The notes below the pieces were generated by a model. The model was not told the origin of the DNA. It worked only from the letters and a program-made list of their open reading frames with translations, and made no database searches. The translations under genes were made by a program, and so were the position numbers. DNA of 64,000 nt from an uncultured bacterium (GTDB lineage: Bacteria; Krumholzibacteriota; Krumholzibacteriia; Krumholzibacteriales; Krumholzibacteriaceae), in NCBI GenBank assembly GCA_963786935.1, contig CAWBAN010000001.1:513158-577157 (forward strand). The letters run 5' to 3'. Of this stretch, positions 14,141-50,454 are shown in pieces (positions within the stretch are counted from its first letter, which is position 1; each line of letters starts with the position of its first letter).

Positions 14141-14150
14141 ACTGCGATGG

Positions 14151-19178: not shown

Positions 19179-19197
19179 CGGGGGAAAGGAAGCGGCA

Positions 19198-22477: not shown

Positions 22478-22506
22478 CCGCATGGAAGCGAGGTGAGACC
22501 CGAACT

Positions 22507-23730: not shown

Positions 23731-23747
23731 AACGGAAGGGGGAACGT

Positions 23748-37532: not shown

Positions 37533-37688
37533 CTCGTTCCGAAGTGCCGGGGTGGGCGCTTCGCAGCGTCACGGCAGGGTCAGCACCCCCAGATCGAGCA
37601 TCGAGGAATCTGCTCCAGAACACGGCTTCCGTGCGCGCGCATCGGGTGAGCAGCATTCCCACCCCGGCGCAGATTGAAAGGGAGTGAT

Positions 37689-38789
37689 ATGGCAGTCTTC
37701 AATTACGCCGGCGGAGAGATAAACGCGAAGATCGTCTATTACGGCCCCGGTCTCAGCGGCAAGACGACGAATCTCGAATTCATCTATTCGAAGCTTCCCC
37801 GCGAGAACAAGGGCAAAATGGTCTCGATGAAGACGCGGACCGACCGCACCCTCTTCTTCGATTTCCTGCCGATCGATATCGGCGAGATCAACGGGATGAA
37901 GGTGCGCTTCCTTCTGTACACGGTGCCCGGCCAGGTGTATTACAACGCCACGCGCAAGCTCGTGCTCAAGGGAGTGGACGCAGTCGTGTTCGTCGCGGAT
38001 TCGGCCCCCGACCGCATGCAGGAAAACAAGGAAGCCATCCAGAATCTCGAAGACAACCTGAACGATCTCGGCTTGACCCTGAAGACGATTCCGTGGGTGA
38101 TCCAGTACAACAAGCGCGATCTGCCCAACCGGATCGAGCGCGAGATGATGGACCAGGAGCTCAATACCGACGCCGTGCCGAGCTTCGAAGCGGTCGCGAG
38201 CAAGGGGGGCGGCGTGTATGAGACGTTCGCCGGAATCGCGAAGCTCGTTTTCAAGAACATGCAGGAAGAGCTGAAGGATCCCGAGCGGAAGCGCGAGGCG
38301 CGCGAGCCGCGCAGCCGGGAGCGCCTCAACATCGAGGTCGTCGCGAAAGGCTCCGTGAAGACCGAAGCGGCGACGGGCGGGGACGACTACCGGAATTGCG
38401 CGGGGAAGAAGGAAGAGGAACCCGCTTCCGTTTCCGAGTTCGTCGACAGCGTGCTGAAGGACCGCGTCGATCCGCAGAGCATCGATCTCGGCGCGACGCG
38501 TGAGGGATACGAGGAATACGGCCATCTCGTCGATCTGAACGGCGCCGACGCGAAGGAGCCGGGGGCTTCCCCGCAGGCGACGAAGCCGGGGGAGATTCTC
38601 TCCGATTCCGTCGAGAAGCTCAAGGCGAAGGTCGCGCTGCAGGAGGCCGAGGAGCCTCCGAAGACGGAGCCCCGGCCGCGCCTCGACGTGGTCGAGGAGA
38701 AGCTGATCCGGGTTCCCGTGCGTCTCTCGAAAGAGGAGATGGCGAAAGAGATCCGTCTGAACATCATCATCGATATCGCCGTCGATTGA
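37689..38789 (+). CDS. mglA: MglA-family Ras-like GTPase with ~175-aa charged, low-complexity C-terminal extension
   Basis: The G-domain (about aa 1-190) aligns closely with Myxococcus MglA: EINAKIVYYGPGLSGKTTNL (P-loop), TRTDRTLFFDFLP (switch I), LYTVPGQVYY (switch II) and IQYNKRDLP (NKxD). The Glu/Lys/Pro-rich tail (38270..38789) is in the same frame. Confidence 0.85.
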   Translation: MAVFNYAGGEINAKIVYYGPGLSGKTTNLEFIYSKLPRENKGKMVSMKTRTDRTLFFDFLPIDIGEINGMKVRFLLYTVPGQVYYNATRKLVLKGVDAVVFVADSAPDRMQENKEAIQNLEDNLNDLGLTLKTIPWVIQYNKRDLPNRIEREMMDQELNTDAVPSFEAVASKGGGVYETFAGIAKLVFKNMQEELKDPERKREAREPRSRERLNIEVVAKGSVKTEAATGGDDYRNCAGKKEEEPASVSEFVDSVLKDRVDPQSIDLGATREGYEEYGHLVDLNGADAKEPGASPQATKPGEILSDSVEKLKAKVALQEAEEPPKTEPRPRLDVVEEKLIRVPVRLSKEEMAKEIRLNIIIDIAVD

Positions 38790-38899
38790 ACGCGCGAAAA
38801 GACTTGACCCGATACGAGACGGGGTGTGAAAATCGGAACCGGAGCGCTCGACAGGCTCCGGTTTTTCGATTATATTTGCGTTATAGAGGGGGAGCCGCC

Positions 38900-39268
38900 A
38901 TGGCGAAGATATTGATCGTCGACGACGAAGTCAACGTGAGGAAGCTCTACAGCGAAGAGCTTCGGAGCGAAGGGTACCTTACCGTCTCGGCGGCCACCGT
39001 CGCGGAGGCGATCGAGTCGGTGGAGAAGGAGGAGCCTGATCTCGTCATTCTCGATATCAAGCTCGGCGAGGAGAGCGGCATCGACGCCCTCATGAAGATC
39101 GCCAAGCAGCGCAAGCGGCTGCCGGTGATCCTGAACTCCGCGTACTCGGTCTACAAGGACAATTTTCAGACGTGGGCGGCGGACGCGTATATCGTGAAAT
39201 CGGTCGATCTCACGCCGCTGAAGGAAAAGATACGGGATCTTTTGACGACACGGAGGACGCAGGCGTGA
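38900..39268 (+). CDS. Single-domain CheY-like response regulator
   Basis: Receiver pattern: KILIVDDE, phospho-acceptor DLVILDIKL, T/S in LNSAYS and K in YIVKS. It lies inside track ORF 38786..39268. Confidence 0.85.
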   Translation: MAKILIVDDEVNVRKLYSEELRSEGYLTVSAATVAEAIESVEKEEPDLVILDIKLGEESGIDALMKIAKQRKRLPVILNSAYSVYKDNFQTWAADAYIVKSVDLTPLKEKIRDLLTTRRTQA

Positions 39269-39818: not shown

Positions 39819-40988
39819 GTGCGGAGGTTTGCGGTGCTTCGCTGGGATAGACTGATCGATATCGCCCGCGGCGAGGGCGCGGAGGAGAGCAGGGAGATCG
39901 TCCGTCTGACGCGGAAATACGAGGCGGGCGAGGCGCAGCCCGAAGAGATCCTCGAGCTCGCCGGGCATCTGCTCAAGGGCCGGAATCCGAAGAAGGGGGA
40001 AAAGGCGATCATGGAGCTGATCGAGTCCCCCGATCTCGACGAGGCGCTCCTCGAAGAGGCGTGCGAGCTCCTCGAGCAGGTCGGCAGCTACGAGCTCGCG
40101 CTCGGGGGCTACGGCAGGGTGCGCGAGCGCGACCCCGGCAAGGCCCTTCCGCTCTACCGCATGGGGCGGCTCCTCGAGATGCAGGGGAGGCTCGACGAGG
40201 CGATCGCGCTCCACCGGCAGGCGATCGCGGTCGAACGCGACAATCCCGAGTGCTACTACCGCCTCGGCGTCGCGCATACGAAGAATCACCAGTACGAGGA
40301 GGCCGAGGAACAGTACCGCAAGGCGATCGACATCGATCCGACGCATTCGAAGTCGTACACGAACCTCGGCTACATTCTCGATCTCCAGGGCAAGCGCGAG
40401 TCGGCGCTGCTCCAGTTCCGCAAGGCGGTACAGCACAATCCGAAGAACGCGGAGGCGCATTTCAATCTCGGCGCCCTGTACGGCGAGGAGGGTGATCGGG
40501 ACCAAGCGATCAAGGAGTTCCGCATCGGTCTCGAGCTCGACACGGCGAGCATCGAGGGGCATTACAACCTCGGCCTCGCCCTCATGAACGAGGGGCGCCT
40601 CGACGACGCGGAGGAGGAGTTCAAGCGCATTCTCAAGATGGAGCACGACAACGTGAACGCGCTCTTCTACCTCGGATTTCTCTATTACCGGAAAGGCGTG
40701 TACGGGAAGGCGCTCAAGCACCTGCAGCACGCCTCGCGCCTCAATCCGGGGAACTCCACGATCCTCTATTACGTGGGCGAGTGCTTCAACAAGCTCGAGC
40801 AGCCCTCGAAGGCGCTCGAGTACTACAAGAAGGTCACGGAGATCAACCCGACCGATTCGAAGGTCTATTTCAGCCTCGGCGTGATCTACGAGAAGCAGGA
40901 CGACAAGCGGAAGGCCCGTGAATACTACAAGCTCGCCGCCCTCAAGGCGCAGGACGAGGCGCCCGGAGGAACGCGGGTCGTCGAATGA
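39819..40988 (+). CDS. TPR-repeat protein
   Basis: About 8 canonical TPR units (e.g. AEAHFNLGALYGEEGDRDQAIKEFRIGLELD). ATGA overlap with the downstream gene. Confidence 0.75.
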   Translation: MRRFAVLRWDRLIDIARGEGAEESREIVRLTRKYEAGEAQPEEILELAGHLLKGRNPKKGEKAIMELIESPDLDEALLEEACELLEQVGSYELALGGYGRVRERDPGKALPLYRMGRLLEMQGRLDEAIALHRQAIAVERDNPECYYRLGVAHTKNHQYEEAEEQYRKAIDIDPTHSKSYTNLGYILDLQGKRESALLQFRKAVQHNPKNAEAHFNLGALYGEEGDRDQAIKEFRIGLELDTASIEGHYNLGLALMNEGRLDDAEEEFKRILKMEHDNVNALFYLGFLYYRKGVYGKALKHLQHASRLNPGNSTILYYVGECFNKLEQPSKALEYYKKVTEINPTDSKVYFSLGVIYEKQDDKRKAREYYKLAALKAQDEAPGGTRVVE

Positions 40989-42550
40989 AGTCGCTTGCAT
41001 CGATGAAGAGAGCCATTGGCGCGGCGGCCATTCTCGCTGGCGTACATTGCATGGCGCCGGCCGTCCGCGCTGAAACCATTCCTCCCGACAGCTGGGCGTA
41101 CGGGGCGCTGCGGGCCTTCGAGGTGAGCGGGCTCGTGAGACTCGAATCGACGCTCCCGTACACCTATATGCAATGCGAAGCCTATACTCGTGAGATCCTC
41201 GCGAACGTGGATGCGCGCGGCGTTGCGCTCGGTCCGCGGCACGCGTTTCTTCTCGAGCGCCTCGCGAAGCAGTTCGTCGGAATGCGCGATCGTCCCGAGG
41301 ACCGGTGGAGCAAGCCGGTGTACACGGTGCGCGAGGATGAGCGCTTCGCGGCACTCGACGCGAGCGTCGGCGGTTCGGTCGAGAGGAAGCCCGACGGGGA
41401 TTCATGGGAAGCGTTCGGGCTCGCCGTTCCGGGCATCCTCGTGGGATTGGGGCACGGCGTCACGATGGAGACGAGCTACCGGCTCGTGATGGGGCCGGAG
41501 CAGGGAAGCAACGCGCACCTGGAAAAGCCCGACGCGCGGCTGCGGAGCTACCACGGCCTGACGGGGGAGTTCGAGCGGGGGCTCATCGACGCGGGCGGCG
41601 ACTGGTGGCAGGTGCGCGCGGGCAGGGAATACATGCAGTGGGGAAGCGGTCCGCGCGAGGGTCTCACGCTCTCGAGCGCCGGGGGATCGCTCGACCACGT
41701 CGGCGCCCGCTTCACGCTCGGGCGTTTCGCGCTCAGCACGTTCCAGGCGGTTCTCAGCTCCGAGCCGGAGAGACGCTTCGCGGGGCATCGCCTGACCGCC
41801 GCGCTGCCGAACGGTATCGATGTCGGCATCGGGGAGACCGTGGTTTATGCGGGGAATATGGATTGGAAGTATCTGACGCCCCTTGGCTTCTTCTACGCCC
41901 ATCAGTACAACGAAGGAACCAACGCGGATAACATTCTCTGGACGCTCGATTGCAAGGTGCCGCTTCGTCCGGGCCTGCTGCTCTCCGGGGAGTTTCTCAT
42001 CGACGACATTCAGTACGAGCGCGACGAGAATGCCGGTCCGGACCGGCTCGGCCTCACGGTCGCGGCGGAAGCGCTCTTCATGGTGGCGGGGAGGGATCTC
42101 GAGGTCGCCGCCGGATACACCTTCATCGACGCGTACACGTACGGTCATTCGGGGGGATCGCAGTACGTCGCCGGCGACGGCGACACGGAGATGAATCCGC
42201 TCCTCGGCGCTTCGATGGGGCCCGACGCGGACCGGAGCTTCATCACGGGAACGCTCGGTCTGAGCGCGCGGACCGCGTTCACGATCGAGGGGGGCGGCAC
42301 GAGATACGGCGCGTTGAGCACGCTGTTCCACGCGGCGCTGCCCGATTGGGCCCCCGGCATGGACAGCGATCTTCCGTTCCCGAGCCCGCCGGTCCTGTAC
42401 GTGAAGTATCTCCTGGCGAGCCTTCGCTATGATCTGAATCACGGATCGTACGTTTCGGCCGGCGCGTGGATGCGGCAGCTCGATCGGGACGCCGACGATG
42501 TCCACACGAGCGGGAGCTACGGCTGGTTCGAGGTCGTTCTGGATCTCTGA
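40985..42550 (+). CDS. Wzi-family outer-membrane protein (capsule/surface-polysaccharide anchoring lectin-porin)
   Basis: The signal peptide is followed by DSWAYGALRAFEVSGLV...TLPYTYMQCEAYTREIL, which matches the Wzi N-helical motif. The internal YMQWGSGPREGLTLS resembles Wzi QWWGPGYEGSLI. A beta-barrel-like alternation runs to a C-terminal aromatic residue. Confidence 0.65.
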   Translation: MKSLASMKRAIGAAAILAGVHCMAPAVRAETIPPDSWAYGALRAFEVSGLVRLESTLPYTYMQCEAYTREILANVDARGVALGPRHAFLLERLAKQFVGMRDRPEDRWSKPVYTVREDERFAALDASVGGSVERKPDGDSWEAFGLAVPGILVGLGHGVTMETSYRLVMGPEQGSNAHLEKPDARLRSYHGLTGEFERGLIDAGGDWWQVRAGREYMQWGSGPREGLTLSSAGGSLDHVGARFTLGRFALSTFQAVLSSEPERRFAGHRLTAALPNGIDVGIGETVVYAGNMDWKYLTPLGFFYAHQYNEGTNADNILWTLDCKVPLRPGLLLSGEFLIDDIQYERDENAGPDRLGLTVAAEALFMVAGRDLEVAAGYTFIDAYTYGHSGGSQYVAGDGDTEMNPLLGASMGPDADRSFITGTLGLSARTAFTIEGGGTRYGALSTLFHAALPDWAPGMDSDLPFPSPPVLYVKYLLASLRYDLNHGSYVSAGAWMRQLDRDADDVHTSGSYGWFEVVLDL

Positions 42551-43371
42551 TGCGAAAAATCCTGAGCCTCATAATCGTGATGCGTCCGCACAACGTCGCG
42601 GCGGCGCTCCTCTCCGTGGCCGTCGGTTTCGCCATGACCGGCTCGACGCGCTGGCCGTGGCTCGTCTTCGCCGCGGCCGCGTTCGCCACGGCGGCGGGCA
42701 ACACGATCAACGATATCTACGACGTCGATATCGACCGGGTCAACAAGCCGCGGCGGCCCCTCGCCGCGGGGGCGCTGGGCACGACCGCCGCGATCGGGCT
42801 CTACGCCTTCTTCTTCGCCGCGGCGGTGTTTCTCATGCTGTTTCTTCCGGGAGAAGCCGCCGTGTGGATCGGCGTGTGGATCGTGCTGCTCCACATCTAC
42901 AGCTGGCGGCTCAAGCGGATGTACCTCGCGGGGAACGTCCTCGTCTCCGCCGTGGCGGGTTCCGGATTTCTCCTCGGCGCGCACATCGGGGGAAACGTCG
43001 CGGCGGGGGCCGTTCCCGCGGCGTTCACGTTCTTCTTCGTCATGGGGCGCGAGATCGTGAAGGACACGGACGACATCGAGGGAGACCGGATCTGCGGGGC
43101 GAGAACCTTCCCGATCGTTTCGGGGCGCCGCGCGGCGCTCACGACGGCGCTCGCGATCTTTCTCGCGCTGTGCGTCGCGTTTCCGGTGCCGGCCTTCATC
43201 GGGATGTACGGACGAGCCTATGCGCTCATCATGATGCTCAGCGTGGTGCCGATTCTCTTGGTTTCGATAGGGATCATTCTCGGGGGGCGGTCGCTCGGGG
43301 TCGTGAGCACGCTCCTGAAGATCGGGATGTTCTTCGGCTGCATCGCGTTCTATTTCGGGCCGCGGCGATGA
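42550..43371 (+). CDS. UbiA-family polyprenyl transferase (MenA/UbiA/DGGGPS/DPPR-synthase-like)
   Basis: The Asp-rich motifs NDIYDVDIDRVNKPRRPLA and DTDDIEGDRICGARTFP are present across about 8 TM helices. TGATG overlap with the upstream gene. Confidence 0.8.
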   Translation: MRKILSLIIVMRPHNVAAALLSVAVGFAMTGSTRWPWLVFAAAAFATAAGNTINDIYDVDIDRVNKPRRPLAAGALGTTAAIGLYAFFFAAAVFLMLFLPGEAAVWIGVWIVLLHIYSWRLKRMYLAGNVLVSAVAGSGFLLGAHIGGNVAAGAVPAAFTFFFVMGREIVKDTDDIEGDRICGARTFPIVSGRRAALTTALAIFLALCVAFPVPAFIGMYGRAYALIMMLSVVPILLVSIGIILGGRSLGVVSTLLKIGMFFGCIAFYFGPRR

Positions 43372-43399: not shown

Positions 43400-44224
43400 G
43401 TGAGCATGAGTATGTGGATCGTCGTTCTCCTCGCCGTCGTGCAGGGGCTCACCGAGTTTTTCCCGGTGAGCTCCTCGGGGCACCTCGTCATTTTCGAGGC
43501 GCTTCTCGGCACGCGGGCCGGAAACGGCCAGAGCGGGCTCATGTTCGAAATAGCGGTGCACCTCGGGACGCTGGGCGCCGTGATCATATTCTACCGGGCG
43601 AAGGTTCTTCGCCTCTGCCGCGCGCTCTTCGCTCCGATTTTCGGGGGCGGCGGATACGCCGCCTATCGAAACGAGCTGCGCTACATCGGCCTCATCGTCC
43701 TCGGATCGATGCCGGCGGGGCTCGTCGGCGTTCTCTTTCACGAAGACGTGGAGAAGACGTTCGAATCGCCGAGCATCTCGGCGATCCTGCTCGTCGCCAC
43801 GGGAATCTATCTCCTGATGACGAAGCTGCGCGCCGTGCGGGGGAGACTCGGATGGCAGTCGGCCCTCATCATCGGCGTGGCCCAAGCGATCGCGATCCTT
43901 CCGGGCTGTTCCCGGAGCGGCTGGACGATCGCGACGGGATTGCTCATCGGCGTCGGTTTCGCCGAAGCGGCCGAGTTCTCGTTTCTCCTCTCGATCCCCG
44001 CGATCCTCGGGGCGCTCGCGCTGACGCTCGCGAAGGAGCCCGGCGTGCTGAACGCCGGATCGATCGCGCCGCTGGCGATCGGCGCTGCAGCGGCGTTTTT
44101 CGCGGGGCTCATCGCCCTCAAGCTCCTCATCGGGATTCTGACGAGAGGGGGGTTTCACCGGTTCGCCTATTACCTGCTGCCGGTGGGGATCGCGGCGTTC
44201 GTCTATTTCAGGCTTCGGGTTTGA
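43400..44224 (+). CDS. uppP: Undecaprenyl-diphosphatase UppP (BacA)
   Basis: VVLLAVVQGLTEFFPVSSSGHLVI and PGCSRSGWTIATGLLIG are the BacA signatures, across about 8 TM segments. Confidence 0.9.
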   Translation: MSMSMWIVVLLAVVQGLTEFFPVSSSGHLVIFEALLGTRAGNGQSGLMFEIAVHLGTLGAVIIFYRAKVLRLCRALFAPIFGGGGYAAYRNELRYIGLIVLGSMPAGLVGVLFHEDVEKTFESPSISAILLVATGIYLLMTKLRAVRGRLGWQSALIIGVAQAIAILPGCSRSGWTIATGLLIGVGFAEAAEFSFLLSIPAILGALALTLAKEPGVLNAGSIAPLAIGAAAAFFAGLIALKLLIGILTRGGFHRFAYYLLPVGIAAFVYFRLRV

Positions 44225-44289: not shown

Positions 44290-45075
44290 ATGGGCGCGCG
44301 TGACGACTCCCGCGGTAACTCCCGAAATGACGCCGGCGGCGAAGAAGTGTCGTTCGGCTACCGGCGCGTCAGCGCCGCCGAAAAGAGGCGGCTCGTCGGC
44401 GGACAATTCGATCCGATTGCGCGCAGGTATGACCTCGCCGACGCGATTCTGAGCTTCGGGCTGCATTTCCGCTGGAAGCGATGGGGGATCGAACGGCTTG
44501 CCCTGAAGAAGGGGGAGTACGTACTCGATGTCTGCGGCGGGACCGGCGATTTCGCGCTGCTCGCCGCCCCCCGCGTCGCGCCTCCGGGACACGCGTTCAT
44601 CTACGACTTCAACCGGGCGATGATGCGCGCCGGCCGCGCCACGGTGAAGCGTTCCCGCTTCGCCGGCAGCATTACTTTCGTCGAGGGAGATGCGGAACGT
44701 CTGAGCTTTCCCAACGGCGTTTTCGACGCGGTCACGGTGGGATTCGGCATCCGGAACCTCGTTCATCTCGATCGGGGATTGAGCGAGATGCATCGGGTCC
44801 TCAGGCCGGGGGGACGGCTCATGATTCTCGAATTCTCTCTCCCCGTCCACGGGTGGCTCCGCCGCCTCTACGATGTCTATTCGTTCAAAGTGATGCCTCT
44901 GGGAGCGAAGATCATCTGCGGCACCGCGGAGCCATTCCGGTATCTCGCCGAATCGATCAGGGTCTTCGATCCGCCCGAGCGGGTGATCGAACGGCTGAAG
45001 AACGCCGGATTCACCGATATCCGTTGTCAGCCGCTCACCGGCGGCATCGCGGTCGTGTATCTCGCCCGGAGGTAA
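44290..45075 (+). CDS. ubiE: UbiE/MenG-family C-methyltransferase (demethylmenaquinone/ubiquinone methyltransferase-like)
   Basis: VLDVCGGTGDFALL, FVEGDAERLSFPNGVFDAVTVGFGIRNLVHL and VLRPGGRLMILEFS match UbiE. It lies inside open frame 43414..45075. Confidence 0.8.
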   Translation: MGARDDSRGNSRNDAGGEEVSFGYRRVSAAEKRRLVGGQFDPIARRYDLADAILSFGLHFRWKRWGIERLALKKGEYVLDVCGGTGDFALLAAPRVAPPGHAFIYDFNRAMMRAGRATVKRSRFAGSITFVEGDAERLSFPNGVFDAVTVGFGIRNLVHLDRGLSEMHRVLRPGGRLMILEFSLPVHGWLRRLYDVYSFKVMPLGAKIICGTAEPFRYLAESIRVFDPPERVIERLKNAGFTDIRCQPLTGGIAVVYLARR

Positions 45076-45081
45076 AGCGAT

Positions 45082-46977
45082 ATGAAGAGACCGATGATCT
45101 CGAAAGAGGCCGGACAGATCGCATCTCATTGCCGGCATTATGCGATGTGCAAGATCGATTATCTGGGAACCGGGCTCTGTCCGACCGGTCCCGAGCGGCA
45201 TTTCGTCGCCTACTATCCGCAGGGACGGATGGATATCTGCGACGCTCTGGCCGGCGAGTCGATCCCCGTGACCGAAGGGCTTCTCGATATCGTCGACACC
45301 TGCACGCTCTGCGGAATCTGCGACAGGCAATGCCATTTCTATACCGGCATGAGGCCGATGACCGTGATGCGGGCCCTCAAGGATTACGTGGCGGCCTGGC
45401 GCGCGGAAGGGGGCAGGGGGACGGCGATTCTCGAGGATGAGGTTTTGAAGGAATTGCGGAAGATCGTCGGCCGGGAATGGGCCACGAACGATCCGGCGAT
45501 CCTCGTGACCTATGCGAATGACCCGTTCCCGCTCGCGGGCCCGCGGATGCCCCGCTATGTGGCGCTGCCGGGTTCCCGCGCAGACGTCGAATCGATCGTC
45601 GCGCTGGCGAACGAATGCGGGCTGCCGTTTGCCGTCCGGGGGAACGGCGGGAGCGTCTTCGGCTTCGTCTTCACCGACGGCATCGTCCTCGACATGAACA
45701 GAATGCGGAAGCTCGTGATCGATCCCGACAACTGGAGCGCCGAGGTGGAGCCGGGAGTGACCTCCTTCGATCTGCAGCGGGAAGCGTACCGGCTCGGCCT
45801 CCGGGTGAACGCCGCGGAGCCTGCCGCCACGGTGTGCGGCAATATCGTCTGCACGGGCACATTTTCCACGTGGTCGAACGTCTACGGGACCGCGGCGGAC
45901 AATGTTCTGGACATGGAGTTCGTCGACAGATCGGGCCGGGCCTTTCACCTGAACGACAAGAGCGTCGCGAACCATTTCGCATTCGAGCGAGACGTCCTGC
46001 CGTCTCCCGGAATCTGCACGCGGGGCCTCGTCAAGCTTCATCCCGTGACCGACGACGAGGAAGGGGTTCTCATTCCGTTTGCGGACTTCGACGGGGCCGC
46101 GCAGTTGGCGAGGAACCTGGGGCAGAGGCGGATCGGCCTCGCCGTGGCGGTCCTCGGGGCGCATTACATCGCGAATTTCATGTGTCCGTCGAAGGAGCTC
46201 GCGGCCCGGCTCAAGCGGAGCCTCTCCGAAGTGCTCGGCTGCGAGTACCTGGTCCTCGCCGTGGGCGACCGCGACGCTCGTGACGCGATCCGGCGAATGG
46301 CCGTCGCGGTGATCGATCAGCCCCTTTTCCGGATGCTGATGCTCGGGCTTCCGAGGCTCCTCGATCCGAGATGGGTCGATCTCATCCGCCAGTACGAGGG
46401 AACGATGCGTCCCTACGAGCTCCTCTGCAAACGGGAGATGCGGCCGCTTCTCGATGCGGTGCTCGAACCGTCGGCCGGAACGATCGCGGAGGCGGTGGAC
46501 GAGGACCTGCGGAGCTTCTACGCCGCGCTCTACGAGCGTCCCGAGATGACCGATATGGTTTGGCTCAACATGTTCCGGATCGTCAGCGCGCGCATGTCGA
46601 GGGAGAAGCATATGCTCGCGTTTCTCGTGTACGTTCCGCTCGATCATATCGACGTCATCAAAAGCATCATTGGGGGATTCAGGAGAATCGCCGACGCCGA
46701 GGGCCTCGACAACGACTACGGCTTTCTCACGCCGATGGATTTCGGGAAGCGAGCCATTCTCGAGTACGATTACTACATCGACCAAACCGACCGGGCCGAT
46801 GCGCAACGAATCGCGCGGGTCATGGCGAAGATCGAACCATGGCTGGACGATCTGGCGGCAGGGACCAAAGGCGTCCAGTGGCTGAAATACGTCTTCTCCC
46901 AGGGATGTTCGCGGAAGGAGAATTTTCTCTACGAAACCTTCGGGCCGCCTCTGAACGGGGAGAAGGCGCCGCGATGA
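45082..46977 (+). CDS. Fe-S cluster (CxxCxxCxxxC) plus FAD-binding PCMH-type (FAD_binding_4) oxidoreductase, unusual fusion
   Basis: The N-terminal 90 aa is Cys-rich (CRHYAMC...GLCP...CTLCGICDRQCHF, a ferredoxin-like motif). An FAD-binding domain follows (ADVESIVALANECGLPFAVRGNGGSVFGF). The C-terminal 300 aa are unassigned. Confidence 0.7.
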   Translation: MKRPMISKEAGQIASHCRHYAMCKIDYLGTGLCPTGPERHFVAYYPQGRMDICDALAGESIPVTEGLLDIVDTCTLCGICDRQCHFYTGMRPMTVMRALKDYVAAWRAEGGRGTAILEDEVLKELRKIVGREWATNDPAILVTYANDPFPLAGPRMPRYVALPGSRADVESIVALANECGLPFAVRGNGGSVFGFVFTDGIVLDMNRMRKLVIDPDNWSAEVEPGVTSFDLQREAYRLGLRVNAAEPAATVCGNIVCTGTFSTWSNVYGTAADNVLDMEFVDRSGRAFHLNDKSVANHFAFERDVLPSPGICTRGLVKLHPVTDDEEGVLIPFADFDGAAQLARNLGQRRIGLAVAVLGAHYIANFMCPSKELAARLKRSLSEVLGCEYLVLAVGDRDARDAIRRMAVAVIDQPLFRMLMLGLPRLLDPRWVDLIRQYEGTMRPYELLCKREMRPLLDAVLEPSAGTIAEAVDEDLRSFYAALYERPEMTDMVWLNMFRIVSARMSREKHMLAFLVYVPLDHIDVIKSIIGGFRRIADAEGLDNDYGFLTPMDFGKRAILEYDYYIDQTDRADAQRIARVMAKIEPWLDDLAAGTKGVQWLKYVFSQGCSRKENFLYETFGPPLNGEKAPR

Positions 46978-48212
46978 GAGCCTCCGGCGAGGAGCTGCGG
47001 CGGGCGCGGACGGGGCGGAAGGGGCGGATCCTGCTCACGGGCGGGACCGGCTTTCTCGGAAGCCATTTGGCCGCCGAGCTTCTCAGGTCCGGAAATGAAA
47101 TCTCGTTGCTCGTCCGGCCGCTCAAGCAGCAACGGGCCGGTGAGAGGGTTGCGAGGATTCTCGACTGGTTCGGAATCGGATCCGAGCTCAGGAGAAACCT
47201 CGAGATCCTCGAAGGAACGATCGAAGCACCGGAGTTTGGATTGGCCGGCCGGGTCCTCTGGGATTGCCTCGAGAATACGAGGGAGGTGATCCACTGCGCT
47301 TCCAACACCGGTTTCGCCGAGAGAAAGAGGCCCGAGGTGGAGGCCGCCAATATCGGAGGGCTCCGCAACGTTCTCGATTTCGCTTCGAGGAGCGGGTGCG
47401 TCTTCTTCCATCATATCAGCACGGCCTATGTAGCGGGGAGGCGCGAGGGGCTCTGCCGGGAAGAGCTCACGGATACGGACGACTTCACGAACGTTTATGA
47501 AGAGACCAAGGCCCGCGGCGAACGGCTGGTCGAGGACCGATGCCGCGCCGCCGGCATTCGCCTGAACATCTATCGTCCGTCGATCGTGTACGGCGACTCG
47601 AGGACGGGACGGAGCCTCCTGTTCAACGCCTTGTACTATCCCGTGAAAACGACCGTCTTCCTCAAGGACCTGTATGAGGCCGACATCCTGAGGCGCGGCG
47701 GCCGCAAGGCCGCGATGGTGGGCGTGCGGCGGAACGGCGACGGGAGCATCTATTTGCCCATCCGTCTCGAAGCGGAGGGCGCGGAGGGAATCAACCTCAT
47801 ACCGGTCGATCATTTTGTCGCGGCGTTTACGGCCATCAGAGAAGAAAGCCTGGACGGAGGGATTTTCCATATCGTCAACGCCGGGCAGACGACGATGAAA
47901 GATCTCATCGATTATACTCAAAGGCTTTTCAATATCCGTGGCATCGAGCCTTGCATGCCGGATCATCTCGGATCCGGGCCGAGGAACGCGCTTGAGGTTC
48001 TCTTCGACGGCTACATCGAAGCCTATGGGCCCTACATGCGTGATAAGCGTACGTTTGCCATGGACAATGCGCGAGGCATTCTGGCCGGGAAGGGGATCGC
48101 CTGTCCGGAGTTCGATTTCGAGATCTTCAGCCGGTGCATGAATTACGCCGTTGAGGTGGGCTGGGGCGCCCGGCTGTTCGGGGGGTGCATGAGCGATGCC
48201 GGTAAGCGATGA
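46973..48212 (+). CDS. Thioester-reductase-domain NAD(P)-dependent reductase (fatty acyl-CoA/ACP reductase-like, extended SDR)
   Basis: ILLTGGTGFLGSHLAAELL (Rossmann), ...HCASNTGF...ANIGGLRNVLDFA...HHISTAYVAG and a YEETK catalytic dyad match the TD/NAD_binding_4 family. ATGA overlap with the oxidase gene. Confidence 0.75.
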
Positions 48213-48540
48213 TTATCTCCAATTCGTTCTCGACCAGCTCGCGGGCTTGAACGGGGTGTCCGCTCGGAGGATGTTCGGCGGCGCCGGGCTCTATCGCGAG
48301 GGGATAATGTTCGGTCTCATCGCGGACGACAGGGCGTATCTGCGCGTCGATGATTCGAACCGCGCGTCTTTCGAGGATGCCGGATCCGAACCGTTCCATC
48401 CCTACGGCGCGAAAGCGACGATGCCGTACTACGAAGTTCCCGTCGACGTGCTCGAGGATTCGGGAGATCTCTGCGCATGGGCCCACAAAGCTCTCGCGGC
48501 GGCGGTGCGGGGACATCGGGCTTCACCGCGGCGGAAGTAG
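48196..48540 (+). CDS. TfoX N-terminal-domain-like protein
   Basis: RRMFGGAGLYREGIMFGLIADDRAYLRVDD follows the TfoX_N pattern. The start overlaps the reductase end by 17 nt. Confidence 0.55.
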   Translation: MPVSDDYLQFVLDQLAGLNGVSARRMFGGAGLYREGIMFGLIADDRAYLRVDDSNRASFEDAGSEPFHPYGAKATMPYYEVPVDVLEDSGDLCAWAHKALAAAVRGHRASPRRK

Positions 48541-48570: not shown

Positions 48571-50454
48571 TCAGGGCGAGCTCTCGAGCCGCTTGAGCAT
48601 TTCGGTGAGCTGCGGCTCTCCCGGGACTTCCACGAGCGCCTTCTTGACCCAGCTGATCGCTTCGTCGCGGTCGCCCTCCGCCATCGCCGCGCGCGCGAGC
48701 AGCCTGCACGCGAGCGCCCGTTCCATCGGCCGGTCGGCCGCGCTCGCCTCGCGGTAGAGCCGCTTCGCCTCCTCGCGGCGTCCGAGGCGGTCGAGCGCCA
48801 TGCCGTACTCCGCGGCGAGGAGCGGGAAGCGCGGGGAGCGCGCGTACGCCCGGGAGAACGCGTCGGCGGCTTCCTGCATCCGTCCCCGCTGCCGGAGGAT
48901 CCGCGCGTAGCTCACGATCGCCTCGACCTTGTCCGGATCGAGCCGGTACGCCTGCTCGAACTCCTCCTGCGCCCGCGCCTCGTCGCCGCGCTCCGCGTAG
49001 TGCTTTCCGAGAAACGAGTGTATCGCGGCGTCGCTCAGCGGCGCGAGCGGCCTGCCCGAGACGAGGAAGAAGAGCGCGACGGCGAGCGCCGCGGCGGCGC
49101 CGAGACGTTTCAGGCGCCTCAGCGAGAGCTCCCGCGCGCTCCAGACGATGAAATAGGCGGCGAGGAGGATGAGGAGCGGCGTCGCCGGGAGCCGGTAGCG
49201 CGCGATGACGAAGAACGCGACGACCGAAACGACCGCGCACGCGAGAAAGAGGGCCGTGGCGCTCCGGTTCCTCCCGCCGCGCATCATGACGATGAATCCG
49301 CATACGGCGAGCGGCGCGATCACCGAGAAGGGCAGGAAGAGAAACCTGAGGACGCCGCAGGTCTTCATGCAGAAGATGACGTTCGGAATGTCGGGGACGT
49401 CGACGTTGAAGTACAGCACCAGTTTCTTCCCGATCAGCGCGAGCCACTTCGCGGGGTGCCGCGCGATATGCTTGATCGTCTCGCGGAAGTAGTACTCGGA
49501 CACCTCCGCCTGCGTCATGGATCTCCCCGTCTCGGCCTCGGCTTTCGTGCGCGAGTCCTCCGCGATCGACGTCATGCCCGTGCGCACGTCGACGGGAGGC
49601 TGGAATGCGCCGCTCGCGCCCGGCCCGTTCCCGATGTAGAAGTTGAATCCTCCGTGGGCGGTCACGGGGACGAAGCGGCCGGTCGCCCTCGCGTTGTAGA
49701 CGATCGGGGGGGCGAGGAACAGCGCGGCGCCGGCGACGAGCGCGCCGGCGGGGAGCAGCCATCGGCGGCCGCTCCGGCGCCTCGCGAAAAGCCATACCGG
49801 AAGTGCGGCGATCAGGAGGAGGAAGAGATTGGGTCTTCCGAGCGCGCCGGTCCCGACGAGGGCGCCGAGAACGAGCCCCGAGACCCCGGGGGGCACCCGG
49901 CGGCTCCCGAGCATCACGGGGCGCTCTCCCCGCAGGTCGCCGTCGAGCGCGAGCGCGAGCGCGAACGAGGCCGTGAACAGGAATATCTCGAGCGTCGAAG
50001 CGAGCAGCATGCCCTCGTACAGGACGAACGGCATGTAGAGGACGGCGAGCGCCGCGGCAACGAGCCCCACGGCCTCTCCGTGCCGTTTCCCCTTCCACGC
50101 GCCGGGGGCGAACCGGCGCCCGAGGAGATAGACGAGCGCGACGGTGAAGAGCCCGATCGCGGCCTGAACGAGACGCGCGGGGAGAAGCCCTGCGCCGAAG
50201 AGCTTGAAGAGCACGACGAGAAACGCCGGGTAGAGCGGATTGAAGGTCAAGGCGCCCGCCGGCGGCGCGCCCCCGCCCGCGATGTCGCGGGCAACGTCGA
50301 AATAGAGCTGCGAATCGAGCGAGAGGGAGCCGCCGAGCTCGTTCCGCCCGAGCTGCACGAGGAAGATCGCCCGCGTGACGGCCGCCACGACAAGAATCGC
50401 GGCGAGAATCGCCGCCGCCGGGACCGCCCCTTTCCGCTGATTCTTTCTGTTCAT
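48571..50454 (-). CDS. GT-C membrane glycosyltransferase (ArnT/PMT-like, GT39/83) with C-terminal TPR repeats
   Basis: An N-terminal region of about 11 TM segments has an ArnT-like loop. The C-terminal 170 aa are TPR units (AERGDEARAQEEFEQAYRLDP...). GGAGG RBS. Confidence 0.7.
   Translation of the reverse strand: MNRKNQRKGAVPAAAILAAILVVAAVTRAIFLVQLGRNELGGSLSLDSQLYFDVARDIAGGGAPPAGALTFNPLYPAFLVVLFKLFGAGLLPARLVQAAIGLFTVALVYLLGRRFAPGAWKGKRHGEAVGLVAAALAVLYMPFVLYEGMLLASTLEIFLFTASFALALALDGDLRGERPVMLGSRRVPPGVSGLVLGALVGTGALGRPNLFLLLIAALPVWLFARRRSGRRWLLPAGALVAGAALFLAPPIVYNARATGRFVPVTAHGGFNFYIGNGPGASGAFQPPVDVRTGMTSIAEDSRTKAEAETGRSMTQAEVSEYYFRETIKHIARHPAKWLALIGKKLVLYFNVDVPDIPNVIFCMKTCGVLRFLFLPFSVIAPLAVCGFIVMMRGGRNRSATALFLACAVVSVVAFFVIARYRLPATPLLILLAAYFIVWSARELSLRRLKRLGAAAALAVALFFLVSGRPLAPLSDAAIHSFLGKHYAERGDEARAQEEFEQAYRLDPDKVEAIVSYARILRQRGRMQEAADAFSRAYARSPRFPLLAAEYGMALDRLGRREEAKRLYREASAADRPMERALACRLLARAAMAEGDRDEAISWVKKALVEVPGEPQLTEMLKRLESSP

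What the first reader, a model, noticed from the sequence alone, without database searches (positions are those of the whole stretch)
45082..48212. Unusual Fe-S + FAD_binding_4 oxidase translationally coupled to a thioester-reductase-domain reductase: candidate ether-lipid or polyprenyl-phospho-sugar pathway
The 631-aa oxidase joins an N-terminal ferredoxin-like Cys cluster (CxxCxxCxxxC plus a second CxnCxnCP) to a PCMH FAD domain. I do not recognise this architecture from characterised enzymes.

It overlaps (ATGA) a stand-alone TD/NAD_binding_4 reductase of the fatty-acyl reductase type. Two analogies are worth testing.

(a) AGPS-like FAD enzyme plus fatty-acyl reductase: alkyl-ether lipid synthesis, as in myxobacteria and eukaryotes.

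(b) DprE1-like FAD oxidase plus DprE2-like reductase epimerising a polyprenyl-P-sugar. The upstream UbiA transferase (DPPR-synthase-like) and the phosphatase UppP would make and trim the substrate. The two GT-C glycosyltransferases in the window would consume the product.
Basis: inference. Interest (0 to 1): 0.65.

Follow-up and report, generated by a model that had tools for sequence, protein, structure and literature searches.

The report
Orphan Fe-S flavoprotein plus thioester-reductase module
Two overlapping genes encode an uncharacterised iron-sulfur flavoenzyme and a thioester-reductase-type partner that always occur together in anaerobic sediment bacteria, usually beside a menaquinone-type methyltransferase; they probably tailor a lipid or quinone without oxygen, but the substrate is unknown.

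Summary
A 631-aa protein (45082-46977) joins an N-terminal 7-Cys ferredoxin-like domain to a PCMH/VAO FAD domain. Its stop overlaps (ATGA) the start of a 412-aa thioester-reductase-type SDR (46974-48212).

The pair is not peculiar to this genome. In 57 of 57 related loci with enough flank, from at least seven phylum-level lineages, the SDR follows the oxidase. A MenG/UbiE-family C-methyltransferase lies within 5 kb in 39 of 57, on either side of the pair.

The window's UbiA and UppP are never conserved (0 of 57). The 'GT-C' next to UbiA is a secreted protein with no transmembrane segments.

The AGPS/FAR reading survives only as an analogy. The cap domain matches no family by sequence, the whole protein has no conserved His, and the strictly conserved Fe-S relay implies net electron transfer.

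More distant paralogues sit beside other thioester reductases (LuxC, HMG-CoA reductase) and ACP, ACAD, HGD/BcrAD, B12-radical-SAM and MMPL genes. Others sit near MenA-like genes.

Best guess: NADPH-dependent reduction of an acyl thioester, then an O2-independent flavin/Fe-S redox step on the product. It is an orphan family, and the substrate is unresolved.

The parts
45082..46977 (+). Fe-S flavoprotein ('OX'), 631 aa: a new family within the VAO/PCMH superfamily
   Evidence: ORF. FAD_binding_4, E 3.6e-27. AF2 model, pLDDT 91. Whole VAO fold by Foldseek, but no subfamily stands out. More than 1165 homologous 90% clusters. At most 79 clusters at 50% identity with E<=1e-30.
45082..45411 (+). N-terminal helical 7-Cys ferredoxin-like domain (residues 1-110): C17, C23, D26, C33(P), C74, C77, C80, C84
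   Evidence: Seven Cys and D26 are conserved in 94-97 of 98 sequences. Weak Fer4_8 and DsrK matches. A 4+3 Cys count like SdhB, suggesting [4Fe-4S] + [3Fe-4S] or an Asp-ligated cluster, is inference.
45436..46122 (+). FAD-binding PCMH domain (residues ~119-347)
   Evidence: The family profile matches PDB chains only over positions 119-347. Scores: LDHD/GlcD 96 bits, vanillyl-alcohol dehydrogenase 83, AGPS 76. GGS stands where 6-HDNO/BBE carry the covalent His.
46123..46941 (+). Divergent cap/substrate domain (residues ~348-620)
   Evidence: No Pfam, NCBIfam or PDB sequence match. Conserved R499, R504, R507, E561, Y562, D563, Y565, Y617. No conserved His.
46974..48212 (+). NADPH-type thioester-reductase-like extended SDR, 412 aa, start overlapping the OX stop (ATGA)
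   Evidence: NAD_binding_4, E 1.8e-41. PRK07201 119 bits and TIGR01746 107 bits. Invariant TGGTGFLGS, T150, Y175, K179, R48. Foldseek best hits: MxaA R domain 1.6e-20, then PKS TR and NRPS T-R. Adjacent to OX in 57 of 57 loci.
44290..45075 (+). MenG/UbiE/Coq5-family C-methyltransferase, 261 aa, 6 nt upstream of OX; frequent third member of the module
   Evidence: Ubie_methyltran, E 4.5e-58. TIGR01934 213.7 bits, cutoff 158; MpqE and UbiE equivalogs below their cutoffs. Coq5 is the only PDB hit. Within 5 kb of OX in 39 of 57 loci: upstream in Aminicenantes, downstream of the SDR in Desulfobacterota.
42550..43371 (+). UbiA-family prenyltransferase (DGGGP-synthase-like); neighbour only in this lineage
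   Evidence: UbiA, E 1.7e-36. PRK12882 177 bits, below cutoff 296. 0 of 57 related loci carry it.
43412..44224 (+). BacA/UppP undecaprenyl-diphosphatase; neighbour only in this lineage
   Evidence: BacA, E 8e-69. 0 of 57 related loci carry it.
40985..42550 (+). Secreted 521-aa protein without family match. Not a GT-C, and not part of the conserved module
   Evidence: No Pfam or NCBIfam hit. Signal peptide, no TM segment. No homologue in related loci.
48196..48540 (+). TfoX_N-domain protein overlapping the SDR end by 17 nt; seen only in this genome's contigs
   Evidence: Precomputed Pfam on L001. No NCBIfam hit. Found only in L001, which is this genome.

Best explanation
The two genes are the invariant core of an orphan, self-contained redox module that works without O2 on a hydrophobic, thioester-activated substrate.

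Step 1 (inferred from fold, motifs and gene displacement). The SDR uses NADPH to reduce an acyl thioester (acyl-ACP or acyl-CoA) to the aldehyde, and perhaps on to the alcohol, as terminal R domains and fatty-acyl reductases do.

Step 2 (inferred). The Fe-S flavoprotein performs a two-electron step at FAD on that aldehyde or alcohol, or on its adduct. The electrons enter or leave through two N-terminal Fe-S clusters: four Cys plus three Cys with an invariant Asp. The partner would be a ferredoxin-like carrier or the quinone pool, so no O2 is needed.

Step 3 (in about 70% of loci). A MenG/UbiE-type methyltransferase adds a C-methyl group.

The product is most likely a membrane lipid or a lipoquinone derivative. 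The exact substrate is not established.

What is shown: the architecture, the conserved motifs, the obligatory gene pairing and the contexts of the paralogues. What is inferred: every catalytic step.
For: 1. Obligatory pairing. The SDR is adjacent to OX in 57 of 57 loci with enough flank. These come from Aminicenantes, Vicinamibacterales, Krumholzibacteria, Desulfobacterota, Nitrospirota, NC10 and Chloroflexota. In the window the two are translationally coupled. Fusion-like fragments also exist.

2. The SDR is a thioester reductase by fold. Foldseek gives MxaA R domain 1.6e-20, with 405 alignment columns for the 412-aa query. PKS TR and NRPS T-R hits rank above sugar epimerases. Sequence hits include PRK07201 and TIGR01746. 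The T/Y/K triad and the Gly motif are invariant.

3. Non-homologous displacement. OX paralogues at 27-30% identity sit next to other thioester reductases. HMG-CoA reductase is directly upstream in L084. LuxC is in the same cluster in L086.

4. Lipid-type company of the paralogues. These include ACP, ACAD, KS, AMP-ligase, HGD-D/BcrAD, B12-radical SAM, MMPL exporters and LolA-like TP_0789 proteins. A 40%-identical OX-SDR pair is followed by an MMPL gene.

5. Redox enzyme. Seven Cys and D26 are conserved in 94-97 of 98 sequences. The protein has the full VAO fold. There is no covalent-FAD His.

6. Self-contained module. No other family recurs among 96 flanking ORFs.
Against: - No substrate-defining gene (carrier protein, ligase, acyltransferase, glycerol-phosphate enzyme) is conserved next to the clade that contains the window's genes.
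- The only frequent third gene is a quinone-type C-methyltransferase. That points to an aromatic quinol rather than an acyl chain.
- MenA-like prenyltransferases lie within 2-3.5 kb of two other OX clades.
- The lipid-cluster evidence comes from paralogues at only 23-45% identity, which may have a different substrate.
- A thioester reduction followed by a flavin oxidation of the resulting alcohol would be futile. The chemistry of step 2 is therefore undefined.
- No electron partner is encoded nearby.
Confidence: 0.45

Rival explanations
1. Anaerobic ether-lipid synthesis, the reader's analogy (a). The SDR acts like FAR and supplies a fatty aldehyde or alcohol. The flavoprotein makes or reduces the ether linkage, either AGPS-like or by MurB-like reduction of a hemiacetal or vinyl ether. 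The product would be an alkylglycerol lipid.
For: - NAD_binding_4 plus FAD_binding_4 is the FAR + AGPS pair of families.
- AGPS is among the structural and profile hits.
- OX paralogues are clustered with HGD-D + BcrAD_BadFG proteins. Those are the Pfam families of PlsA/Ger ether-lipid enzymes (PMC13274423).
- One such cluster also holds LuxC, and all hold B12-radical SAM genes.
- MMPL lipid exporters are present in two contexts.
- Host phyla include known or suspected ether-lipid producers (general knowledge).
Against: - AGPS membership fails. There is no FAD-oxidase_C match, no conserved His or HHH loop, and AGPS is not the closest relative.
- AGPS chemistry is redox-neutral, so the invariant Fe-S relay is unexplained.
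- No DHAP or glycerol-phosphate acyltransferase, and no PlsA-like gene, lies near the window's clade.
- The HGD-D proteins of the paralogue clusters score best against 2-hydroxyisocaproyl-CoA dehydratase.
- The MenG-like methyltransferase has no role in this scheme.
- The family is not mentioned in the ether-lipid papers that were read.
Confidence: 0.2
2. Tailoring or biosynthesis of a prenylated naphtho- or benzoquinol. The flavoprotein acts like p-cresol or 4-ethylphenol methylhydroxylase, through a quinone methide on a quinol substituent, with the Fe-S domain replacing the cytochrome subunit. The SDR interconverts the resulting alcohol and carbonyl, or reduces DHNA-CoA. The MT is the ring C-methylase. 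The product would be a modified menaquinone, for example a hydroxy-, oxo- or extra-methyl-MK.
For: - The MT passes the TIGR01934 MenG/UbiE cutoff in the window (213.7 against 158) and in two Desulfobacterota loci (204 and 218). Its only PDB relative is Coq5.
- The MT stays linked through a change in gene order.
- Module-linked MTs are 46-62% identical to the window's MT across phyla, but the window's MT is only 31% identical to another UbiE-like gene.
- MenA-type UbiA genes lie near two other OX clades, one of them above the TIGR00751 cutoff.
- A UbiD gene is adjacent in L084.
- Eugenol and vanillyl-alcohol oxidases, 4-ethylphenol oxidase and PCMH are among the best Foldseek hits.
- Conserved Tyr and Arg residues occur in the cap domain.
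- OX is highly conserved across phyla (52-70% identity), as is typical of cofactor pathways.
Against: - The SDR has a thioester-reductase fold. It is not the classical short SDR of alkylphenol pathways.
- The MT is absent near OX in 18 of 57 loci.
- The MenA genes are 2-3.5 kb away with unrelated or opposite-strand genes between, so the proximity could be chance.
- The 4-phenol-oxidase catalytic residues and a covalent FAD link could not be mapped. No conserved His is present.
- No such modified quinone is known to me from these taxa.
- The module is rare: about 300 of 185,579 species genomes, a lower bound. It is therefore not a core step of MK synthesis.
Confidence: 0.2
3. An Fe-S-dependent D-2-hydroxyacid or 2-hydroxyacyl dehydrogenase: a GlcD/LDHD-like enzyme with a built-in GlcF-like Fe-S module, working with a reductase on 2-hydroxy or 2-oxo acyl compounds.
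For: - The best sequence-profile matches of the FAD domain are LDHD, glycolate oxidase and LctD (96-81 bits).
- LDHD is the top Foldseek hit.
- Paralogues sit beside 2-hydroxyacyl-CoA-dehydratase-like HGD-D/BcrAD proteins, with HadB the best NCBIfam hit, and beside ETF genes.
- Three conserved Arg residues could bind a carboxylate or CoA.
Against: - No FAD-oxidase_C match.
- No conserved His, although LDHD and D2HGDH use a His/His/Glu metal site (general knowledge).
- No transporter, regulator or catabolic gene is conserved nearby.
- The obligatory thioester reductase and the SAM-dependent methyltransferase do not fit a catabolic dehydrogenase.
Confidence: 0.08
4. BfaB/BfaA-like branch formation. 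The MT methylenates a C=C of an acyl or isoprenoid chain, and the FAD enzyme reduces the exomethylene to a methyl branch.
For: - A methyltransferase overlapping an 'FAD-binding oxidoreductase' makes 10-methyl fatty acids in actinomycetes (PMC5660069; PMC7791843).
- MT and OX are 6 nt apart here, and they overlap in L003.
- MurB-type C=C reduction occurs within this superfamily (general knowledge).
Against: - The MT is of the UbiE/Coq5 type, not the Cfa/CMAS type.
- Desulfobacteraceae make 10-methylpalmitate with tmpBA, a Cfa-like MT plus a GGR-like reductase.
- The invariant partner of OX is the SDR, not the MT.
Confidence: 0.05
5. DprE1/DprE2-like epimerisation of a polyprenyl-phospho-sugar, fed by UbiA and UppP and consumed by GT-C enzymes.
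For: - FAD_binding_4 oxidase plus NAD(P) reductase is the DprE1/E2 logic.
- UbiA and UppP are in the same apparent operon in this one genome.
Against: - UbiA and UppP are in 0 of 57 related loci.
- No GT or UbiA family recurs in the flanks.
- The UbiA is DGGGPS-like, not DPPR-synthase-like: 177 bits against 31-36 bits.
- The OX C-domain lacks the lactone-oxidase/DprE1 domain.
- The SDR is a thioester-reductase fold.
- The supposed GT-C next to UbiA has no TM helices.
Confidence: 0.02

Closest known systems
VAO/PCMH flavoprotein superfamily: D-lactate dehydrogenase/GlcD, vanillyl-alcohol and eugenol oxidases, p-cresol methylhydroxylase, AGPS
   Same: Complete two-domain VAO fold in a confident model: pLDDT 91, Foldseek E 1e-19 to 1e-16, TM about 0.48-0.50 normalised to the query. 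The FAD-binding domain is recognisable by sequence.
   Different: - An N-terminal 110-residue 7-Cys Fe-S domain that was not covered by any sequence match to a solved structure.
- A cap domain without sequence similarity to FAD-oxidase_C, BBE or ALO domains.
- No conserved His: no LDHD-type metal site, no AGPS HHH loop, no covalent FAD His.
- No subfamily is clearly closest.
GlcD-GlcF fusions, YdiJ and Fe-S D-lactate dehydrogenases (FAD_binding_4 + FAD-oxidase_C + C-terminal Fer4_8/CCG)
   Same: A PCMH FAD domain is combined in one polypeptide with ferredoxin-like clusters for O2-independent electron transfer. YdiJ and DsrK give weak NCBIfam hits.
   Different: The Fe-S domain is N-terminal, has seven rather than eight Cys plus an invariant Asp, and has no CCG domains. 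The YdiJ match covers the FAD domain only (29 bits against a cutoff of 1350).
Terminal thioester-reductase (R/TD) domains of PKS/NRPS (MxaA, CpkC-type), CAR R domains and fatty acyl-CoA reductases
   Same: Same extended-SDR fold over the full length, the same T/Y/K triad and the same Gly-rich motif.
   Different: The protein stands alone, with no carrier protein or adenylation domain in the conserved neighbourhood. It is below the TIGR01746 cutoff (107 against 213). It has four invariant Cys (C108, C142, C161, C377) of unknown role.
FAR + AGPS ether-lipid pair of eukaryotes and myxobacteria
   Same: The same two Pfam families work as a pair.
   Different: AGPS-defining features are absent. Fe-S clusters are present. 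No acyl-DHAP-forming enzyme is found, and a quinone-type methyltransferase is the third gene.
'Ladderane-like' lipid gene clusters of non-anammox anaerobes (ACP, KS, B12-radical SAM), function unknown
   Same: Paralogues of the flavoprotein are embedded in such clusters. One L091 radical SAM gene scores 77 bits against TIGR04072, 'lipid biosynthesis B12-binding/radical SAM protein', below its cutoff of 360 (PMC9902471).
   Different: The window's clade has none of these genes nearby. Only OX, the SDR and usually the MT are present.

Membership tests
VAO/PCMH FAD-linked oxidoreductase superfamily | PCMH-type FAD-binding domain plus a cap domain forming the VAO fold | tested here: met
   PF01565, 95 bits against a cutoff of 26.4. 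AF2 pLDDT 91. Foldseek probability 1.00 to many members over 500-570 alignment columns.
AGPS (alkyl-DHAP synthase) | FAD-oxidase_C-type cap with catalytic Tyr and the His-His-His loop; closest relatives are AGPS | tested here: not met
   No PF02913 hit. AGPS scores 76 bits on the FAD domain only, below LDHD at 96. No His is conserved at 93% or more anywhere in 98 sequences. The identity of the AGPS catalytic residues is from general knowledge.
AGPS (alkyl-DHAP synthase) | Exchange of an acyl group for a fatty alcohol on acyl-DHAP | not testable with these tools
   Needs an enzyme assay. No DHAP acyltransferase is conserved nearby.
DprE1 (decaprenyl-P-ribose 2'-oxidase) | FAD_binding_4 plus ALO/lactone-oxidase-type C-domain; genomic link to DPPR synthase (UbiA) and arabinosyl GT-C enzymes | tested here: not met
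   The lactone-oxidase models hit only the FAD domain, at 24 and 14 bits against cutoffs of 397 and 292. UbiA is in 0 of 57 loci. The window's UbiA scores 31-36 bits on DPPR-synthase models.
DprE2 (classical SDR keto-reductase) | Short-chain adh_short fold of about 250 aa | tested here: not met
   412-aa extended SDR. NAD_binding_4 and Epimerase profiles match, with no adh_short hit. R-domain fold. The DprE2 fold class is from general knowledge.
GlcD/LDHD/D2HGDH 2-hydroxyacid dehydrogenases | FAD-oxidase_C domain with a His/His/Glu metal site | tested here: not met
   GlcD models score 40 and 31 bits against cutoffs of 568 and 897, on the FAD domain only. No PF02913 hit. No conserved His.
4-phenol-oxidising VAO subfamily (VAO, EUGO, PCMH) | Tyr-Tyr-Arg phenolate-binding triad and (usually) covalent 8-alpha-His/Tyr-FAD | tested here: inconclusive
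   These enzymes are among the top Foldseek hits. Conserved Y562, Y565, Y617, R499, R504 and R507 exist. No residue-level structural alignment was available, and there is no conserved His.
BBE/6-HDNO-type covalent flavoproteins | His in the R-S-G-G-H motif that links covalently to FAD | tested here: not met
   The 6-HDNO 'SGGHN' aligns with 'NGGSV' in the query. That column is never His in 21 homologues.
Thioester-reductase (R/TD) / fatty-acyl reductase extended SDRs | TGxxGxxG NAD(P) motif, catalytic Thr/Tyr/Lys, R-domain C-terminal subdomain | tested here: met
   T22-G-G-T-G-F-L-G-S30, T150, Y175 and K179 are invariant. Full-length Foldseek match to MxaA, PKS TR and NRPS T-R. It remains below the TIGR01746 cutoff, 107 against 213.
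Thioester-reductase (R/TD) / fatty-acyl reductase extended SDRs | Reduction of an acyl thioester | not testable with these tools
   Needs an assay. The support is indirect: OX paralogues sit beside LuxC and HMG-CoA reductase.
MenG/UbiE/Coq5 quinone C-methyltransferases (neighbouring gene) | Full-length match to the family profile above the curated cutoff | tested here: met
   TIGR01934, 213.7 bits against 158.35. PF01209, 197 bits, covering profile positions 7-231 of 233. All equivalog-level models (UbiE, MenG, MpqE) are below their cutoffs, so the exact substrate is open.
2x[4Fe-4S] ferredoxin-type domain (Fer4_8) | Two CxxCxxCxxxCP motifs (eight Cys) | tested here: inconclusive
   One canonical motif (C74-C84) plus C17-x5-C23-x9-C33-P makes seven Cys with an invariant D26. 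Fer4_8 scores 15 bits, below its cutoff of 27. Cluster type needs EPR or Mössbauer spectroscopy.

The most novel reading that the evidence does not exclude
The OX-SDR pair, with its paralogues in HGD/BcrAD, LuxC and B12-radical-SAM clusters, is a previously unrecognised O2-independent route. It would convert acyl thioesters, via aldehydes, into alkyl (ether-linked and/or methyl-branched) membrane lipids in Aminicenantes, Acidobacteriota and Desulfobacterota. If so, it would be a genetic handle on the orphan bacterial alkylglycerol-ether and brGDGT-type lipids of anoxic sediments.
Probability: 0.15. Interest if true: 0.85.

Novelty: new variant of a known kind. Interest (0 to 1): 0.55.

Why it matters
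The flavoprotein is 52-70% identical to the window's copy across at least seven phylum-level lineages of uncultured or poorly studied anaerobes. Source databases name it only 'hypothetical' or 'FAD-binding protein'. Its partner is invariant.

An orphan this well conserved usually marks a missing piece of core lipid or cofactor chemistry. Both leading readings touch open questions:
- how anaerobes make saturated ether or branched membrane lipids that are used as palaeoclimate proxies;
- whether anaerobes modify menaquinone by O2-independent, PCMH-like chemistry.

The module is small (two or three soluble proteins) and is present in at least one cultured strain, so it can be tested directly.

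Tried and rejected
1. 10-methyl fatty-acid synthesis. I considered this because Desulfotignum and NC10 are hosts. I rejected it because Desulfobacteraceae use tmpBA, a Cfa-like MT plus a GGR-like reductase, and the MT here is UbiE-type.

2. Methyl-plastoquinone pathway. MpqE is the top NCBIfam hit of the MT. The mpq cluster described in that paper contains no FAD_binding_4 or SDR gene.

3. A fourth conserved gene. Clustering of all ORFs within about -7 to +9 kb in 80 loci, followed by Pfam scans of 96 and then 10 flanking ORFs, found nothing recurrent. The 306-aa ORF called upstream in L003 looks like a high-GC shadow ORF.

5. Plasmid collection. It held only FAD-domain-level hits.

6. Metagenome scan with a 40%-identical paralogue. 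It gave one usable locus (L098), where OX is divergent from a classical SDR and an aldo-keto reductase.

7. Literature. Searches for this architecture in ether-lipid, brGDGT, menaquinone and chlorobiumquinone papers found no description.

8. Operon signals and RNAs. Promoter and terminator scans were not above shuffled expectation. No Rfam family or tRNA was found in the window.

9. Source organism. The window's organism could not be named from cluster look-ups.

Full report
**Observation**

ORF 45082-46977 (+, 631 aa) and ORF 46974-48212 (+, 412 aa) are present. A GC3/GC2 coding filter picked them out. The oxidase stop TGA (46975-46977) overlaps the reductase ATG (46974-46976), giving ATGA. 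A GGAGG precedes the oxidase start.

Pfam finds FAD_binding_4 in the oxidase (residues 157-290, E 3.6e-27). It finds only a sub-threshold Fer4_8 match at residues 71-91. The reductase matches NAD_binding_4 (E 1.8e-41). NCBIfam has no equivalog for either protein. The oxidase touches GlcD, YdiJ, BagG and lactone-oxidase models only through its FAD domain and far below their cutoffs. The reductase scores best on PRK07201 (119 bits) and on the thioester-reductase domain TIGR01746 (107 bits, cutoff 213).

**Anatomy of the oxidase**

An alignment of 21 homologues down to 23% identity, and one of 98 sequences, show the same Cys pattern: C17-x5-C23-x2-D26-x6-C33-P and C74-xx-C77-xx-C80-xxx-C84. All seven Cys and D26 are present in 94-97 of 98 sequences. 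Seven Cys in a 4+3 arrangement recall the [4Fe-4S]/[3Fe-4S] pair of SdhB. An Asp-ligated second cubane is the alternative. Both readings are inference.

The AlphaFold model is confident (pLDDT 91, pTM 0.91). Foldseek against the PDB returns the whole VAO fold. No subfamily stands out. LDHD, eugenol and vanillyl-alcohol oxidases, 4-ethylphenol oxidase, PCMH and AGPS all fall at E 1e-19 to 1e-16, with TM about 0.48 and 15-18% identity.

A family profile matches PDB sequences only over positions 119-347: LDHD 96 bits, vanillyl-alcohol dehydrogenase 83, LctD 81, AGPS 76. The cap domain (about residues 348-620) has no sequence relative. No His is conserved anywhere in the protein. The conserved residues of the cap are R499, R504, R507, E561, Y562, D563, Y565 and Y617. 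The position of the covalent His of 6-HDNO/BBE is Ser here.

The protein is therefore a new family within the VAO/PCMH superfamily. Its Fe-S relay argues for net electron transfer.

**Anatomy of the reductase**

TGGTGFLGS, S149-T150, Y175-xxx-K179 and R48 are invariant in 11 homologues from several phyla. Its model has pLDDT 75. It matches the myxalamid terminal R domain best (E 1.6e-20, 405 alignment columns for the 412-aa query). A Streptomyces PKS thioreductase and NRPS T-R didomains follow. Sugar epimerases, CAR R domains and a plant FAR rank lower.

**How widespread, and what travels with it**

- The oxidase has more than 1165 homologous 90% clusters, many of them about 617 aa and 67-70% identical.
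- At 50% clustering, 79 representatives reach E<=1e-30. Of the listed ones, 17 were full-length or nearly so (aligned).
- A scan of 185,579 species genomes found 297 loci, which is a lower bound. They come from Aminicenantes, Vicinamibacterales, Krumholzibacteria, Desulfobacterota, Nitrospirota, NC10, Chloroflexota and Deferrimicrobium. The Desulfobacterota include Desulfotignum, Desulfonatronovibrio, Desulfobulbus alkaliphilus DSM 24258, Syntrophobacteraceae and Syntrophorhabdus.
- Of 57 loci with enough flank, the SDR is adjacent in 57.
- A UbiE-like methyltransferase lies within 5 kb in 39 of those 57. It is upstream of OX in Aminicenantes and downstream of the SDR in Desulfobacterota.
- Homologues of the window's UbiA and UppP are present in none.
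- ORF clustering and Pfam scans of 96 and then 10 flanking ORFs found no other recurrent family.
- Fragments that join OX to NAD_binding_4, or a UbiE domain to the OX N-terminus, exist. They may be frameshift artefacts.

**The methyltransferase**

It matches Ubie_methyltran over the whole profile (E 4.5e-58). It passes the TIGR01934 MenG/UbiE subfamily cutoff (213.7 against 158). It stays below all equivalog cutoffs, and MpqE scores highest. The same holds for module-linked copies in Desulfobulbus and Desulfotignum. Coq5 is its only PDB relative. Module-linked copies are 46-62% identical to the window's copy across phyla. The window's copy is only 31% identical to another UbiE-like gene in locus L094.

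**The window-specific neighbours**

On the plus strand, with short gaps or overlaps, the order is:
1. TPR protein
2. secreted 521-aa protein
3. UbiA
4. UppP
5. MT
6. OX
7. SDR
8. TfoX_N protein

. The UbiA is DGGGP-synthase-like (177 bits) rather than DPPR-synthase-like (31-36 bits). The 521-aa protein has a signal peptide and no TM helix, so it is not a GT-C. The minus-strand 627-aa protein has about 11 TM segments plus TPR repeats. None of these neighbours is conserved with the pair.

**Contexts of distant paralogues**

| Locus | Identity to the window's OX | Neighbouring genes |
|---|---|---|
| L084 | 27% | AMP-ligase, ACAD, KS, ACP, HMG-CoA reductase, OX, UbiD, MMPL, TP_0789-like, ETF alpha/beta |
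| L086 | 30% (Spirochaetales) | LuxC, HGD-D, BcrAD, HGD-D, OX, two B12-radical SAM |
| L085 | 23% | HGD-D, BcrAD, OX, four radical SAM genes (three with a B12-binding domain) |
| L091 | 27% (Aminicenantes, 9.1 Mb contig) | HGD-D, BcrAD, OX, four radical SAM genes with B12-binding domains (one cut by the locus end), PPTase |
| L092 | 45% | TP_0789-like, OX, ACAD, ACP, two HGD-D, B12-radical SAM genes |
| L093 | 40% | aminotransferase, OX, NAD_binding_4 SDR, MMPL, LuxI/LuxR |
| L088, L094 | 36% | MenA-type UbiA 2.5-2.6 kb away (107.8 bits on TIGR00751, cutoff 102.15) |
| L089, L090 | 38% | MenA-like UbiA 1.2 kb away |
| L098 | 31% to paralogue P0125, not to the window's OX | classical SDR and aldo-keto reductase, divergent from OX |

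Two themes emerge.
- Three non-homologous thioester reductases (TR-SDR, LuxC, HMG-CoA reductase) accompany OX, together with acyl-carrier and lipid-export genes.
- Quinone-type enzymes (UbiE, MenA, UbiD) also accompany OX.

**Interpretation**

The best-supported statement is that OX and the SDR act consecutively on a thioester-activated hydrophobic substrate. The SDR reduces the thioester. The flavoprotein then carries out an O2-independent two-electron step, wired through its Fe-S clusters. A quinone-type C-methyltransferase is often added. I give this general mechanism 0.45.

Within or beside it, I rate the more specific readings as follows:
- an ether-lipid (FAR/AGPS-like or vinyl-ether-reducing) role, about 0.2;
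- a prenylquinol-tailoring (PCMH-like) role, about 0.2;
- a 2-hydroxyacid dehydrogenase role, about 0.08;
- a BfaAB-like branch-forming role, about 0.05;
- the DprE1/E2 reading, about 0.02.

AGPS, DprE1, DprE2, GlcD/LDHD and BBE membership each fail at least one defining feature that was tested. Membership in the VAO superfamily, the R-domain SDRs and the MenG/UbiE subfamily is met.

**Comparison with the literature**

Known bacterial ether-lipid routes are elbB-E/ElbD, Agps and PlsA/Ger (PMC13274423; PMC13159169). None of these papers mentions this family. 10-methyl fatty acids are made by bfaAB or tmpBA. The methyl-plastoquinone pathway has no such enzymes. 'Ladderane-like' clusters of unknown function in non-anammox anaerobes probably correspond to the paralogue clusters seen here.

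**Limits**

- No coordinates or residue-level structural alignments were available.
- Two fold libraries were offline.
- Whole genomes could not be queried. It is therefore unknown whether the linked MT is the only MenG copy, or whether carriers share men, mqn or plsA genes.
- The source organism of the window could not be named.
- All catalytic steps are inferred.

Noticed in passing
L085:542-10451; L086:529-11068; L091:5574-17875; L092:303-9881: A recurrent cluster type. HGD-D plus BcrAD_BadFG proteins (2-hydroxyacyl-CoA-dehydratase / benzoyl-CoA-reductase / PlsA-like families) sit beside an OX paralogue and two to four B12-binding radical SAM genes. LuxC, ACP, ACAD or a PPTase are variably present. 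Hosts include Aminicenantes (9.1 Mb contig CP070627.1) and Spirochaetales. It looks like an uncharacterised 'ladderane-like' or branched/ether lipid gene cluster.
   Followed up: partly
L084:2130-16322: A cluster of AMP-ligase, ACAD, KS, ACP, class-I-like HMG-CoA reductase, OX paralogue, UbiD (VdcC-like), MMPL, LolA-like TP_0789 protein and ETF alpha/beta. It could be a lipid or olefin pathway, or a modified mevalonate-type pathway with its own electron-transfer flavoprotein.
   Followed up: partly
L093:4907-14434: A 40%-identical OX-SDR pair is flanked by a class I/II aminotransferase and an MMPL/sterol-sensing exporter. A LuxI/LuxR pair lies next to it. The product may be an exported lipid, or an aldehyde-derived amine, under quorum control.
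   Followed up: no
window 46974-48212: The SDR has four invariant Cys (C108, C142, C161, C377) and two nearly invariant ones (C190, C388). This is unusual for R domains. Possible roles are a metal or disulfide site, or a contact with the Fe-S flavoprotein.
   Followed up: no
window 40985-42550: A 521-aa secreted protein with no Pfam or NCBIfam match. Its stop overlaps the UbiA start. It may be an outer-membrane beta-barrel (C-terminal ...WFEVVLDL). It is not a GT-C.
   Followed up: partly
window 48571-50454 (-): A 627-aa protein with about 11 predicted TM segments followed by TPR repeats, and no glycosyltransferase profile hit.
   Followed up: partly
L037:12251-13588; L034:10759-12060: In two Desulfobacterota loci the OX-SDR-MT genes are followed, directly in L037 and one gene later in L034, by ORFs that fall in the same sequence cluster. 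The L037 copy is a membrane ferric-reductase/NOX-type flavocytochrome (Ferric_reduct + FAD_binding_8 + NAD_binding_1). It is a possible electron partner.
   Followed up: no
window 10518-24941: The upstream part of the window is a division/cell-wall (dcw) cluster: FtsI-type PBP with PASTA domains, Mur ligases and FtsZ. ORF 16335-19178 (947 aa) carries both MurD-like and FtsW domains in one reading frame. This is either a fusion or two genes read through by the mechanical ORF caller.
   Followed up: no
window 37674-39268: A 371-aa protein with an Arf-family small-GTPase domain, overlapping a response-regulator receiver gene. It lies upstream of the TPR gene that heads the apparent operon.
   Followed up: no
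L003:8309-9229: The 306-aa gene called upstream of the MT on this ENA contig translates to an Arg/Ala/Gly/Asp-rich sequence without family hits. It is probably a shadow ORF of a minus-strand gene.
   Followed up: partly
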